A stretch of 64,000 nucleotides of DNA. It comes from Candidatus Moraniibacteriota bacterium (GTDB lineage: Bacteria > Patescibacteriota > Minisyncoccia > Moranbacterales > UBA2206). Of the stretch, positions 31,709 through 32,421 are shown one piece after another (the first letter of the stretch is position 1; every line of letters begins with the position of its first letter). A model generated the notes under the pieces. It ran no database searches. It worked only from the letters and a program-made list of their open reading frames with translations, and was not told the origin of the DNA. The stretch spans positions 42,557 to 106,556 of the forward strand of contig JAAXWW010000004.1 of the NCBI GenBank assembly GCA_013334765.1, read 5' to 3'. A program made the translations under genes and the position numbers.

Positions 31709-31747
31709 GAGGGAGCCATGTGCGTTTTACGCACAACCGGCTCCCTC
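31709..31747. terminator. Palindromic hairpin (gagggagcc...ggctccctc), copy 1 of 2; acts as minus-strand terminator for 31753..32034 and contains a + strand SD+ATG mini-ORF (MCVLRTTGSLRP)
   Basis: 9+6-bp stem; AAAGAGGGAGCC-ATG arrangement duplicated at 32203. Confidence 0.55.
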
Positions 31748-31752
31748 AGGCC

Positions 31753-32034
31753 TTAACACAATAACCCCGCATCATTGAGGCACCTTTGAAAAGTACCCCA
31801 CGCCTCAGGGAAAAGCTCCCTCAAAGTGCGGGCGCCTCCGTTCACAAGAAACAGATCGACCCACTCTTTTGCTTTCCTGCGATCCTCTTCTGACAACCCT
31901 CTCACCTGTTCAGGAATTCTGCCAAGAAAAAAATTGTCAAAAAAGAATTGCGCGACCAGGCATTTTTCGTCCATACCTCCAACTGTTTGAACCAGCCGCA
32001 TCGACCATTCTTTCTGAGCTTGTTGTGCAGACAT
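31753..32034 (-). CDS. hypothetical small protein (93 aa)
   Basis: Strong SD AGGAGGGGG directly upstream of the ATG; hairpin terminator downstream. Confidence 0.55.
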   Translation of the reverse strand: MSAQQAQKEWSMRLVQTVGGMDEKCLVAQFFFDNFFLGRIPEQVRGLSEEDRRKAKEWVDLFLVNGGARTLRELFPEAWGTFQRCLNDAGLLC

Positions 32035-32150
32035 GCCCCCTCCTGCGGAATACCTTTAATGAAAGAACAGCTCCCTTAAAAAAACGACGAGTCATTCTAT
32101 TTTTCTTTTTATTTAATTCTACGAATTACCGAGAATATATCAATAGCAAG

Positions 32151-32159
32151 TTATCCACA
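32151..32159 (+). promoter_or_regulatory. perfect DnaA box TTATCCACA
   Basis: Exact 9-mer consensus (context caagTTATCCACAgg). Confidence 0.5.
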
Positions 32160-32202
32160 GGATTGATCTTCGATTCTTAATTTCAAAAATGGCCAAATAA
32201 AA

Positions 32203-32237
32203 GAGGGAGCCATGTGCGCGTTGCGCGTGGCTCCCTC
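32203..32237. terminator. Palindromic hairpin (gagggagcc...ggctccctc), copy 2; terminator for 32272..32421 and contains a + strand SD+ATG mini-ORF (MCALRVAPSGLDGEA)
   Basis: Same AAAGAGGGAGCCATGTGCG start as copy 1; T-tract on the minus strand. Confidence 0.55.
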
Positions 32238-32271
32238 GGGTCTCGATGGGGAAGCATAATCCCTCCTTTGG

Positions 32272-32421
32272 TTAACTGAACAACAGTCCCTTGTAAATGA
32301 AGCGCTCGTAAACCGAGCAGACGCGCCGAGCGCTGCTGCTGGCCAGACCGAAATCCAGCAACCGGCAGTACATGTGCACAGGATTGAGCCGGTGCTGCAG
32401 GTAATTGCGGATCCGCTTCAT
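32272..32421 (-). CDS. hypothetical small protein (49 aa), GC-rich; not in the supplied ORF track (<60 aa)
   Basis: SD GAGGGGG 5 nt upstream of the ATG (MKRIRNYLQHRLNPVHMYCRLLDFGLASSSARRVCSVYERFIYKGLLFS); terminator hairpin downstream. Confidence 0.4.
   Translation of the reverse strand: MKRIRNYLQHRLNPVHMYCRLLDFGLASSSARRVCSVYERFIYKGLLFS

What the first reader, a model, noticed from the sequence alone, without database searches (positions are those of the whole stretch)
31709..32421. Duplicated SD-ATG-hairpin modules forming tiny MCxLR... ORFs that double as terminators of two GC-rich small genes
AAAGAGGGAGCC-ATG-TGCG... occurs twice, ~500 bp apart (31709 and 32203). On the + strand each copy is a strong SD followed by a 12- or 15-codon ORF (MCVLRTTGSLRP / MCALRVAPSGLDGEA). 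On the minus strand the same palindrome is the intrinsic terminator of a small gene with an unusually strong GGAGGGGG SD (31753-32034, 93 aa, and 32272-32421, 49 aa; the latter is missing from the ORF track). This could be a pair of convergent small-protein / micro-peptide cassettes, or leader peptides regulating whatever is downstream. The whole 32035-32790 region is otherwise non-coding and holds two perfect DnaA boxes.
Basis: seen in the sequence. Interest (0 to 1): 0.5.

Follow-up and report, generated by a model that had tools for sequence, protein, structure and literature searches.

The report
Twin terminators of two small genes
The repeated "ribosome site + ATG + hairpin" is the mirror image of two related transcription terminators that end two neighbouring small genes on the opposite strand of a Moranbacteria genome. 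The tiny ORFs are not conserved, but one of the small genes (49 aa) is a real, highly conserved gene that the annotation missed.

Summary
AAAGAGGGAGCCATGTGCG occurs exactly twice (31706, 32200), and both copies are strong hairpins. The plus-strand micro-ORFs are artefacts: AAAGAGGGAGCC-ATG is the reverse complement of a terminator's 3' arm plus U-tract (CAU-GGCUCCCUC-UUU). T-rich tails occur only on the minus strand. Six homologous hairpins from relatives have TGT, ATA, AGG, TCA, TAG or ATC where the window has ATG. Their stems and tails are kept.

The hairpins terminate two tandem minus-strand small-gene modules between uvrB and a thioredoxin-like/lexA operon. Each module has a TGTGGATAA (DnaA-box) promoter, a GAGGGGG Shine-Dalgarno site, a small ORF and a terminator. 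One relative (L150) has the same two-module layout. Sister lineages L024/L025 keep one module with a hybrid-looking terminator.

The 49-aa ORF is a real, unannotated gene (dN/dS about 0.06-0.2). It is shared with Desulfovibrionaceae at 63-92% amino-acid identity. The 93-aa ORF has one syntenic homologue.

The "non-coding" spacer holds a conserved leader/sRNA-like element and a 5'UTR whose structure sequesters the Shine-Dalgarno site. A gene-strand micro-ORF runs through terminator T1.

Verdict: these are ordinary terminators in a modestly interesting, uncharacterised small-gene locus.

The parts
31699..31750 (-). Minus-strand RNA reads GAGGGAGCC-GGUUGUGCGUAAAACGCACAU-GGCUCCCUC followed by UUUCAUUUG. 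It ends the 93-aa gene.
   Evidence: Folds at -32.9 kcal/mol, z -5.4. The T-rich tail is on the minus strand only. A positionally equivalent hairpin precedes the thioredoxin-like gene's promoter in L150, L023, L024, L025 and L151.
32193..32240 (-). Minus-strand RNA reads GAGGGAGCCA-CGCGCAACGCGCAC-AUGGCUCCCUC followed by UUUUAUUUGG. It ends the 49-aa gene.
   Evidence: Folds at -26.8 kcal/mol, z -4.6. Orthologous hairpins follow the 49-aa-family ORF in L024, L025, L023 and L150. One basal pair shows a compensatory change, others show wobble changes, and the apical stems differ.
31718..31756 (+). Judged a mirror-image by-product of T2, not a gene.
   Evidence: Translation. The ATG is absent at the equivalent position in all six non-window hairpins. 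The SD and ATG are buried in the stem.
32212..32259 (+). Judged a mirror-image by-product of T1.
   Evidence: Translation. Same arguments as for micro-ORF 1.
31753..32034 (-). 93-aa ORF (annotated HGB08_03360). Predicted helical, function unknown. SD GGAGGGGG at 32036-32043.
   Evidence: Only a self-hit among 5.8 billion and 1.8 billion proteins. It has a syntenic homologue in L150: 33% identity over 60 aa, E 2e-9. AlphaFold2 on the single sequence gives pLDDT 58, all helical. No Pfam, NCBIfam, PADLOC or PHROGs hit.
32272..32421 (-). 49-aa ORF, not annotated in the MAG. It belongs to a conserved small-protein family (NYLQHRLNPVHMYCRL...C.VYERFIY). SD GAGGGGG at 32426-32432.
   Evidence: 16 homologous clusters at 68-94% BLASTP identity (63-92% over the 49-aa alignment). 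Five that were looked up (P0003, P0006, P0007, P0010, P0012) lie in Desulfovibrionaceae-type contexts, and P0014 lies on the Moranbacteria contigs L023/L026-L029. dN/dS is about 0.06-0.2 with dS above 1. Diverged syntenic homologues occur in L024, L025 and L150. The AlphaFold2 model has three helices, pLDDT 73.
32433..32494 (-). 5'UTR of the 49-aa gene. A conserved GCUCUUU stretch pairs with the SD AGGGGGC around a conserved hairpin (32433-32454), so the SD is sequestered.
   Evidence: Single-sequence folds. Consensus fold over 5 lineages gives 15 pairs, 2 with compensatory changes.
32500..32528 (-). Promoter P2 for the 49-aa gene: TTGACT-17-TATAAT.
   Evidence: Matches 11 of 12 consensus positions. 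Conserved in L024, L025, L023 and L150.
32583..32714 (-). Conserved leader/sRNA-like element ending in its own terminator (32590-32612, ACACGC-UAC-GCGUGUUUUUGUUGUUU). It contains an invariant AUGYCUCAR, which could start a 15-codon ORF at 32612-32659.
   Evidence: Six copies aligned. nhmmer finds only the syntenic copies, E 1e-19 to 1e-33. Consensus fold. No Rfam family matches.
32718..32762 (-). DnaA-box promoter of module B: CTGTGGATAACT-GCCTA-TTGCGC-16-TAATAT.
   Evidence: Perfect box. TGTGGATAA, the TTG of the -35 and TAnnAT of the -10 are invariant across six copies.
32116..32160 (-). DnaA-box promoter of module A: CTGTGGATAACT-TGCTA-TTGATA-16-TAGAAT. It drives the 93-aa gene.
   Evidence: Promoter scan gives 10 of 12. 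The 27-nt repeat is 81% identical to the module B copy (D2). The orthologous copy in L150 has the same TAGAAT -10.
32183..32257 (-). Gene-strand micro-ORF (MLPHRDPREPRATRTWLPLLFGHF) with SD AAGGAGGG. It reads through terminator T1. A candidate translation-coupled antiterminator; inferred, not shown.
   Evidence: Translation. An SD plus ATG ORF spanning the 5' arm is present in 5 of 5 T1 orthologues and absent at both T2 hairpins and at L151, where only a GTG start with AAGGAG 9 nt upstream was seen. Chance per locus is 0.6-4.7%.
31675..31702 (-). Promoter of the downstream thioredoxin-like/lexA genes (TTGCCT-16-TAGAAT). It abuts the T-tract of T2.
   Evidence: Promoter scan. The flank is conserved in L024 and L025.

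Best explanation
The two repeats are Rho-independent terminators T1 (32193-32240) and T2 (31699-31750). They end two tandem small-gene transcription units on the minus strand, which lie between uvrB and a thioredoxin-like/lexA operon in a Candidatus Moranbacteria genome. Each unit has the same build: a TGTGGATAA (DnaA-box) motif 6-7 nt upstream of a -35 hexamer, a GAGGGGG Shine-Dalgarno (SD) site, a small ORF (49 aa or 93 aa), then a GC-rich hairpin with a U-tract.

The plus-strand 'strong SD + ATG' is what this terminator looks like when read backwards. AAAGAGGGAGCC is the complement of GGCUCCCUCUUU (3' arm plus U-tract), and ATG is the complement of the CAU that extends the stem. The micro-ORFs are therefore not genes.

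The two modules are old paralogues. They are present together in the window and in L150, and one was lost, probably by recombination between the directly repeated terminators, in the sister lineage L024/L025.

Shown: the repeat, the hairpins, the strand-specific T-tails, the non-conservation of the ATG, the synteny, and the coding status of the 49-aa gene.
Inferred: actual termination, promoter use, DnaA binding, the deletion mechanism, and partial gene conversion between T1 and T2.
For: - Exact 19-nt repeat, beyond chance.
- Strong hairpins.
- T-rich tails UUUUAUUUGG and UUUCAUUUG only on the minus strand. The plus strand continues AGGCCUUAAC or GGGUCUCGAU.
- Each hairpin starts 5-35 nt after the stop codon of a co-oriented ORF.
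- Eight homologous or positionally equivalent hairpins all fold (-21 to -30 kcal/mol, 13-20 pairs) with T-rich tails, while their apical stems differ. The basal stem keeps pairing through G-C to A-U and wobble changes.
Elsewhere it is TGT, ATA, AGG, TCA, TAG or ATC.
- The stem sequence GAGGGAGCC..GGCUCCCUCUUU recurs as a terminator-shaped hairpin in more than 120 unrelated metagenome contigs. An SD-like mirror image is therefore generic.
- Two-module synteny in L150, with a homologue of the 93-aa protein (E 2e-9) and of the 49-aa protein (E 6.5e-5).
- The tree of the thioredoxin-like protein is ((((L024,L025),win),L150),L023).
- The single terminator of L024/L025 has a T1-type stem and tail plus the T2-type downstream flank.
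- An independent assembly is identical.
Against: - No transcript 3'-end data exist for this uncultivated organism, so termination is inferred from sequence.
- The simple terminator scan did not list either hairpin, because their bulged two-tier stems and long loops fall outside its stem/loop rules.
- The U-tracts are interrupted (UUUUAUUUGG, UUUCAUUUG).
- The pairwise identity of T2 to its presumed orthologue (40/53) is no higher than to T1 (42/53). Orthology versus gene conversion of the terminators is therefore not resolved.
- Only one other genome shows the two-module state.
Confidence: 0.87

Rival explanations
1. The plus-strand SD-ATG-hairpin modules encode translated micro-peptides (MCxLR...) or leader peptides that regulate something downstream on the plus strand.
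For: The strings exist: an SD-like GAGGGAG 2-5 nt before an ATG, with ORFs of 12 and 15 codons sharing MCxLR. The 19 nt are identical in both copies.
Against: - The ATG is missing in all six homologous hairpins of other genomes.
- The shared MC.LR comes from the 19-nt identity, and the peptides diverge where the apical stems differ.
- The SD and ATG are base-paired inside hairpins of -32 to -33 kcal/mol on the plus strand.
- No plus-strand promoter-like site lies in 31040-31709 or 32035-32203.
- Downstream on the + strand is only the antisense of the 93-aa and 49-aa genes.
Confidence: 0.02
2. The hairpins are ends or attachment sites of a mobile or cassette-type element (integron attC-like, an IS200/IS605-type MITE, or REP). 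On this view the 494-nt unit carrying the 93-aa ORF is a recently inserted cassette.
For: Direct repeats of about 50 nt flank a 494-nt unit carrying a near-orphan ORF. The interior of module A has no detectable similarity to module B or to the single-module loci. L024, L025 and L023 lack the unit.
Against: - L150, an outgroup to (win, L024, L025), has the same second module with a homologous ORF, promoter and terminator. The unit is therefore ancestral, not a recent insertion.
- Only two copies of the hairpin occur in 64 kb.
- The stem ends GAGGGAGCC/GGCTCCCTC lack the attC R''/R' cores RYYYAAC/GTTRRRY (read directly).
- Rfam finds no group II intron or other mobile RNA.
- The hairpin occupies a conserved terminator position in all relatives.
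Confidence: 0.04
3. An add-on to the best explanation, not exclusive of it. T1 is a regulated terminator (attenuator). A gene-strand micro-ORF (32183-32257) with its own SD is translated through the 5' arm of T1. A ribosome following RNA polymerase would block hairpin formation and allow read-through into the 93-aa gene and the thioredoxin-like/lexA genes.
For: - An SD plus ATG ORF crossing the 5' arm is present in 5 of 5 T1 orthologues from four lineages. The spacer sequence is otherwise diverged and the peptides are not conserved.
- The chance per locus is 0.6-4.7%.
- In L150 the ATG overlaps the stop codon of the upstream ORF (TAATG).
- The 15-codon ORF of the leader element likewise stops at the base of its own terminator.
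Against: - The loci are homologous, so the five occurrences are not independent.
- In L024 and L025 the SD and ATG lie inside a longer upstream ORF.
- T2 and L151 have no such ATG ORF.
- There are no expression data.
- The SD-like GGAGGG could instead act as RNA, by alternative pairing with the CUCCCUC arm.
Confidence: 0.2
4. The two perfect DnaA boxes mark a replication origin (oriC) or a DnaA-titrating site in the uvrB-thioredoxin spacer.
For: Two perfect TTATCCACA boxes lie within 610 nt in an AT-rich spacer. Boxes with at most 1 mismatch are enriched in the window, 22 against 11.6 expected.
Against: - Cumulative GC skew falls almost steadily across the window and does not turn at 32 kb.
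- There is only one box per site.
- Each box sits 6-7 nt upstream of a conserved -35 hexamer, as does the third perfect box at 59748.
- The boxes were duplicated together with the modules.
Confidence: 0.03

Closest known systems
Rho-independent (intrinsic) transcription terminators
   Same: A GC-rich stem-loop of 13-20 pairs is followed at once by a T/U-rich tract on the transcribed strand. It lies a few nucleotides after the stop codon of a co-oriented gene. Pairing is kept and the loop sequence is free among homologues.
   Different: The stems are two-tiered and bulged and the U-tracts are interrupted. The two copies share 19 identical nucleotides, which is unusual for independent terminators and reflects paralogy or possible gene conversion.
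Translation-coupled attenuators such as the E. coli pyrBI leader, where a leader ORF runs through the attenuator hairpin (from my own knowledge of that system)
   Same: A short ORF with its own SD reads through the 5' arm of T1 on the transcribed strand. The act of translation, rather than the peptide, seems to be what is conserved.
   Different: It lies downstream of a gene rather than in a 5' leader. No sensing logic such as regulatory codons or pause sites has been identified. It is entirely untested.
DnaA acting as a transcription factor at DnaA-box promoters (dnaA, nrdAB, and B. subtilis sda, which encodes a small checkpoint protein; PMC8203912)
   Same: A perfect consensus box TTATCCACA lies next to the promoter of small-protein genes, beside DNA-repair and SOS genes.
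   Different: There is one box per promoter at a fixed distance from the -35 hexamer. DnaA binding is untested. The 49-aa and 93-aa proteins show no similarity to Sda or to any known family.
Integron gene cassettes (small, often orphan ORF followed by an attC hairpin)
   Same: Tandem small ORFs are each followed by a related imperfect palindrome in the same orientation.
   Different: The hairpins have no R''/R' core sites. Each unit has its own promoter. The hairpins carry U-tracts and sit at positions conserved among relatives. There are only two copies.

Membership tests
Intrinsic (Rho-independent) terminator | Stable GC-rich stem-loop | tested here: met
   -26.8 and -32.9 kcal/mol on the minus strand, z -4.6 and -5.4, 0 of 200 shuffles as stable.
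Intrinsic (Rho-independent) terminator | U-rich tract directly 3' of the stem on the transcribed strand | tested here: met
   UUUUAUUUGG (7 of 10 U) and UUUCAUUUG on the minus strand. The plus strand has no U-tract.
Intrinsic (Rho-independent) terminator | Located just downstream of a co-oriented gene | tested here: met
   T2's stem starts 5 nt after the stop codon of the 93-aa ORF. T1's stem starts 34 nt after the stop codon of the 49-aa ORF.
Intrinsic (Rho-independent) terminator | Structure rather than sequence conserved in homologues | tested here: met
   All eight hairpins fold. The apical stems differ, and the basal stem shows one G-C to A-U double change and wobble changes. Covariation is modest because only five sequences were aligned.
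Intrinsic (Rho-independent) terminator | Transcript 3' ends map to the U-tract | not testable with these tools
   No Term-seq or RNA-seq data are available for this MAG.
Translated micro-ORF / leader peptide on the + strand | Start codon and reading frame conserved in homologous loci | tested here: not met
   ATG occurs only in the two window copies. The other six have TGT, ATA, AGG, TCA, TAG or ATC.
Translated micro-ORF / leader peptide on the + strand | Accessible ribosome-binding site and an upstream promoter on that strand | tested here: not met
   The SD and ATG are paired in hairpins of -32 to -33 kcal/mol. No plus-strand promoter-like site lies upstream within several hundred nt.
Integron attC / gene cassette | R'' (RYYYAAC) and R' (GTTRRRY) core sites at the ends of the palindrome | tested here: not met
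   The stem ends are GAGGGAGCC and GGCTCCCTC, with no AAC/GTT cores (sequence).
Integron attC / gene cassette | Integron integrase or an array of attC sites nearby | not tested
   Only the neighbouring genes were typed (uvrB by synteny, LexA, thioredoxin-like, DUF3800). The whole window was not scanned for intI.
Dispersed repeat (REP / MITE) | Many copies at unrelated loci of the genome | tested here: not met
   Two copies in 64 kb, both at positions that carry a terminator in relatives. Only 64 kb of the genome was available.
oriC | Cluster of DnaA boxes with a GC-skew switch | tested here: not met
   Single boxes 602 nt apart. Cumulative GC skew does not turn at 32 kb.
DnaA-regulated promoter | Consensus DnaA box next to a functional promoter | tested here: met
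   TGTGGATAA is invariant in six aligned copies, together with the -35 TTG and -10 TAnnAT. The same layout occurs at 59748.
DnaA-regulated promoter | DnaA binds and changes transcription | not testable with these tools
   This needs EMSA, ChIP or reporter assays.
49-aa NYLQHRLNPVHMYCRL small-protein family (uncharacterised) | Sequence membership and purifying selection | tested here: met
   63-92% identity to 13 aligned family members (16 clusters at E 1e-14 to 1e-24), 22 invariant columns, dN/dS about 0.06-0.2.

The most novel reading that the evidence does not exclude
The spacer between uvrB and the thioredoxin-like gene may be a DnaA-box-controlled, translation-gated small-gene switch specific to a Moranbacteria clade.
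- DnaA-box promoters would drive a conserved leader element and two small proteins of unknown fold family beside the excision-repair and SOS genes. This is Sda-like replication-stress logic.
- Gene-strand micro-ORFs would gate the terminators by ribosome occupancy, so that read-through into the thioredoxin-like/lexA genes reports translational status. One is the 15-codon leader ORF that stops at the base of its terminator. The other is the 24-codon ORF that runs through T1.
- The 49-aa effector would have been exchanged between Moranbacteria and Desulfovibrionaceae, which hints at a host-epibiont link.
Probability: 0.1. Interest if true: 0.6.

Novelty: new member of a known kind. Interest (0 to 1): 0.3.

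Why it matters
For the scan, this is a cautionary case. Any terminator whose 3' arm ends in CUCCCUC followed by a U-tract looks like a strong Shine-Dalgarno site when read on the other strand, and a CAU at the top of the stem supplies an ATG. Such micro-ORFs should be discounted unless the start codon is conserved.

For biology, the modest gains are these:
- A real, strongly constrained 49-aa gene is missing from the annotation. It is shared between a CPR (candidate phyla radiation) lineage and Desulfovibrionaceae.
- The near-orphan 93-aa gene now has a syntenic homologue.
- A conserved promoter architecture places a perfect DnaA box just upstream of the -35 hexamer. It drives small genes next to uvrB and lexA in an uncultivated phylum whose regulation is essentially unknown.

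Tried and rejected
- **Rfam:** neither the gathering nor the permissive search found a family for the hairpins, the spacer or the leader element.
- **Protein libraries:** Pfam, NCBIfam, PADLOC, PHROGs and PDB by sequence and by fold gave nothing for either small protein.
- **Deep HMMER search with the 93-aa protein:** it returned only the protein itself and one weak hit to part of a 2409-aa protein. The L150 homologue was found only through synteny.
- **Genome-contig scan with the thioredoxin-like protein:** the hits were at most 52% identical, with no synteny, hairpin or DnaA box.
- **Metagenome scan for the hairpin pattern:** it returned more than 120 unrelated terminator-like hairpins and none with the locus genes.
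- **Tandem-duplication test:** I looked for interior similarity between module A and module B. None exceeded shuffles, and the two protein families are not homologous.
- **Recent insertion:** I first read module A as a recent insertion. L150 and the tree rejected that.
- **Misassembly or contamination as the source of the Desulfovibrio-like gene:** rejected, because an independent assembly is identical, dS is above 1, and the gene is syntenic in L023.
- **Mobile-element origin of the 49-aa gene:** there is no match in the plasmid or phage collections.
- **oriC:** rejected on GC skew.
- **The 55-aa ORF 32508-32675 called in the Logan contig:** its ATG is not conserved in L024 and it overlaps the leader element, so it is probably spurious.
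Full report
**1. The observation**

The window comes from a Candidatus Moranbacteria metagenome-assembled genome; the 93-aa ORF is annotated HGB08_03360. The 19-mer AAAGAGGGAGCCATGTGCG occurs exactly twice, at 31706 and 32200 on the + strand, 494 nt apart. None of 100 dinucleotide-preserving shuffles gave two matches, and the repeat extends to 33 nt at 88% identity. Both copies lie in strong hairpins (-27 to -33 kcal/mol, z -4.6 to -6.1). 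The minus-strand ORFs 31753-32034 (93 aa) and 32272-32421 (49 aa) and their GAGGGGGCAT motifs are present, and so are the two perfect DnaA boxes. An independent Logan assembly of SRR11449211 (very likely the MAG's own read set) is 100% identical over 31173-35331, so the layout is not a chimera.

There are two corrections. The 93-aa ORF is not GC-rich: its GC3 is 0.48, against 0.78 for the 49-aa ORF and 0.52-0.68 for neighbouring genes, with the DUF3800 gene an outlier at 0.35. The spacer is also far from featureless, as section 6 shows.

**2. Which strand matters**

On the minus strand each hairpin is followed at once by a T-rich tract (UUUUAUUUGG, UUUCAUUUG). T2's stem begins 5 nt, and T1's 34 nt, after the stop codon of a co-oriented ORF. 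On the plus strand the hairpins are followed by AGGCCUUAAC and GGGUCUCGAU. The plus-strand "SD" AAAGAGGGAGCC is exactly the complement of the 3' arm plus U-tract (GGCUCCCUCUUU). The ATG is the complement of the CAU that extends the lower stem.

On a plus-strand RNA the SD and ATG would be paired inside a hairpin of -32 to -33 kcal/mol. The scan found no plus-strand sigma-70-like promoter in the several hundred nucleotides upstream. These were unrelated contigs (median GC 0.60) with no homology to the locus genes. The stem is therefore a generic terminator shape, and its SD-like mirror image comes with it.

**3. Comparative test of the micro-ORFs**

The thioredoxin-like neighbour (30611-31621, minus strand) led to related contigs:

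| Locus | Identity of thioredoxin-like protein to window |
|---|---|
| L024 | 85% |
| L025 | 83% |
| L150 | 66% |
| L023, L026-L029 (one species) | 61-63% |
| L151 | 58-60% |

All carry a hairpin with a T-tail at the equivalent position, just upstream of the promoter of the thioredoxin-like gene. All eight hairpins fold (-21 to -30 kcal/mol, 13-20 pairs), and their apical stems differ. The basal stem keeps pairing through one G-C to A-U double change and wobble changes.

The shared MC.LR is a consequence of the 19-nt identity, and the peptides diverge where the apical stems differ.

**4. What the hairpins belong to**

Read on the minus strand, the region after the uvrB stop codon (32790) runs as follows.

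- **Module B**
  - DnaA-box promoter: CTGTGGATAACT-N5-TTGCGC-16-TAATAT (32762-32718).
  - A conserved element of about 130 nt that ends in its own terminator (32714-32583).
  - A near-consensus promoter, TTGACT-17-TATAAT (32528-32500; 11 of 12).
  - A structured 5'UTR.
  - SD GAGGGGG, the 49-aa ORF, then terminator T1.
- **Module A**
  - A second DnaA-box promoter: CTGTGGATAACT-N5-TTGATA-16-TAGAAT (32160-32116; 10 of 12).
  - SD GGAGGGGG, the 93-aa ORF, then terminator T2.
  - T2's T-tract abuts the promoter of the thioredoxin-like gene (31702-31675).

L150 has the same two modules in the same order. It even has a copy of the leader element in each. Its second ORF is a homologue of the 93-aa protein (33% identity over 60 aa, E 2e-9). 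Its first ORF is a diverged member of the 49-aa family (profile E 6.5e-5). L024, L025 and L023 have only the first module.

A neighbour-joining tree of the thioredoxin-like protein gives ((((L024,L025),win),L150),L023). The two-module state is therefore most simply ancestral to the window, L024, L025 and L150, and was lost in the L024/L025 lineage. Their single terminator has a T1-type stem and tail followed by the flank that lies downstream of T2 in the window. That is the expected product of a deletion between the directly repeated terminators; this step is inferred.

The interiors of the two modules show no similarity above shuffles, and the two protein families are not homologous. What is repeated is the regulatory frame, not the genes. 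The 19-nt identity between the window's T1 and T2 contrasts with 37/57 between L150's two terminators. This hints at gene conversion but does not prove it.

**5. The two small genes**

The 49-aa ORF is unannotated in the MAG: the search returned no exact self-hit. It belongs to a tight family, NYLQHRLNPVHMYCRL..G....AR..C.VYERFIY, with 16 clusters at 63-92% identity over the 49-aa alignment (68-94% by BLASTP local alignment).

Five clusters that were looked up (P0003, P0006, P0007, P0010, P0012) lie in Desulfovibrionaceae-type chromosomal contexts, with ferredoxin or L28 upstream, DUF1786 downstream, and contig GC of 0.61-0.67. The source names of two clusters point the same way: P0009 (S. magneticus DMR_13980) and P0012 (S. 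aerotolerans). P0014 lies on the Moranbacteria contigs L023/L026-L029. The remaining clusters were not looked up.

Nucleotide identity to these is 76-81% and is confined to the coding sequence plus the SD. dS exceeds 1 and dN/dS is about 0.06-0.2. The gene is therefore real, strongly constrained, and anciently diverged from the Desulfovibrionaceae copies. It is not contamination. L023 has the canonical 49-aa form. L024 and L025 have a 99-104-aa version with a hydrophobic N-terminal extension. The L150 version lacks the His and Cys residues.

AlphaFold2 gives three helices at pLDDT 73, and there is no significant PDB fold match. No Pfam, NCBIfam, PADLOC or PHROGs family matches either protein. 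The 49-aa protein also has no PDB sequence match and no plasmid or phage copy.

The 93-aa protein is predicted helical at low confidence. Apart from the L150 homologue it has no relative among 1.8 billion cluster representatives. The function of both proteins is unknown.

**6. The "non-coding" spacer and the DnaA boxes**

Cumulative GC skew falls almost steadily across the window and does not turn at 32 kb, so this is not an origin. Each perfect box sits 6-7 nt upstream of a -35 hexamer. In the six aligned promoter copies the invariant positions are TGTGGATAA, the TTG of the -35, and TAnnAT of the -10. The window's third perfect box (59748) has the same layout: TTGTGGATAACT-CCGG-TTGACA-17-TAAACT, placed after a terminator and upstream of an uncharacterised 223-aa ORF. 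This is the geometry of a transcription-factor site. DnaA is known to act in this way at dnaA, nrdAB and the small-protein gene sda (PMC8203912). Binding here is inferred, not shown.

The leader element has no Rfam match and no further copies in the sequences held. Its consensus fold is a terminator hairpin plus an A-rich core that can pair with the U-tract. It also contains an invariant AUGYCUCAR that could start a 15-codon ORF (MPQKTEIQSNIENPK, 32659-32612) ending at the base of the hairpin. Whether the element acts as RNA or as a leader peptide remains open.

In the 5'UTR of the 49-aa gene a conserved GCUCUUU pairs with the SD around a conserved hairpin.

**7. A micro-ORF on the other strand**

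Between the 49-aa stop codon and T1 there is an SD (AAGGAGGG) and an ATG. They open a 24-codon ORF on the gene strand that reads through T1 (32257-32183). An SD plus ATG ORF crossing the 5' arm in the same frame is present in all five T1 orthologues. The spacer is otherwise diverged and the peptides are unrelated. Shuffling gives 0.6-4.7% per locus. It is absent at T2 and at L151. This fits a ribosome-occupancy (pyrBI-like) control of read-through. The loci are homologous, however, and nothing here is expression data, so I rate it at about 0.2.

**8. Verdict**

The repeat is real and the hairpins are ordinary intrinsic terminators, paralogous because the small-gene modules they close are paralogous. 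The plus-strand micro-ORFs are mirror-image artefacts. The residual interest lies in three things: the unannotated cross-phylum 49-aa gene, the DnaA-box promoter architecture, and the possibly translation-gated terminators of an uncharacterised locus beside uvrB and lexA in a CPR (candidate phyla radiation) bacterium.

Noticed in passing
window 32272-32421 (-): The 49-aa gene is absent from the MAG's annotation. It is 80-92% identical in protein to small proteins of Solidesulfovibrio and other Desulfovibrionaceae, a different phylum, with dS above 1 and dN/dS about 0.06-0.2. Within Moranbacteria the syntenic gene ranges from canonical (L023) to strongly diverged (L024, L025, L150). The direction of transfer is unknown.
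   Followed up: partly
window 32583-32714 (-); L024 1293-1420; L025 3989-4119; L023 549-664; L150 105-235 and 882-1011: A conserved element of about 130 nt lies downstream of a DnaA-box promoter and ends in its own terminator. It has no Rfam family. An invariant AUGYCUCAR could start a 14-27-codon ORF, with an in-frame 3-nt indel in L023. Whether it is an sRNA or a leader peptide is unresolved.
   Followed up: partly
window 32433-32494 (-): The 5'UTR of the 49-aa gene has a conserved GCUCUUU stretch that pairs with the SD AGGGGGC, enclosing a conserved hairpin whose sequence co-varies. It looks like an SD-sequestering translational control element.
   Followed up: partly
window 32183-32257 (-): A gene-strand 24-codon ORF with a strong SD reads through terminator T1. 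An equivalent SD plus ATG ORF is present in all five orthologous loci although the peptide is not conserved.
   Followed up: partly
window 59700-59760 (-): The third perfect DnaA box in the window has the same promoter layout (TTGTGGATAACT-CCGG-TTGACA-17-TAAACT). It sits directly after a terminator and upstream of an uncharacterised 223-aa ORF (58926-59597). This suggests a regulon-type motif.
   Followed up: partly
L023 1-12087 (and L026, L027): In the relative L023 the locus continues as the 49-aa gene, the thioredoxin-like gene, lexA, a NYN-domain gene, uvrA, uvrC and a second uvrA. The small gene therefore sits inside a compact excision-repair/SOS cluster.
   Followed up: no
L024 1583-1882; L025 4256-4570: In the window's closest relatives the 49-aa-family gene has gained a hydrophobic N-terminal extension of about 40 residues and a C-terminal tail (99-104 aa in all), and the second module is missing.
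   Followed up: partly
window 32508-32675 (-): A 55-aa ORF called as a gene on the Logan contig overlaps the leader element and promoter P2. Its ATG is not conserved in L024, so it is probably a spurious call.
   Followed up: partly
window 28683-29489 (-): A DUF3800 gene with much lower GC (0.33, GC3 0.35) than its neighbours lies just downstream of lexA. It may be a foreign insertion.
   Followed up: no
window 50955-51348 (+): A tmRNA gene with tag peptide ANLYTKARTAMAQAFSANFATALA. There are tRNA genes at 329-859 and 7006-7080.
   Followed up: no
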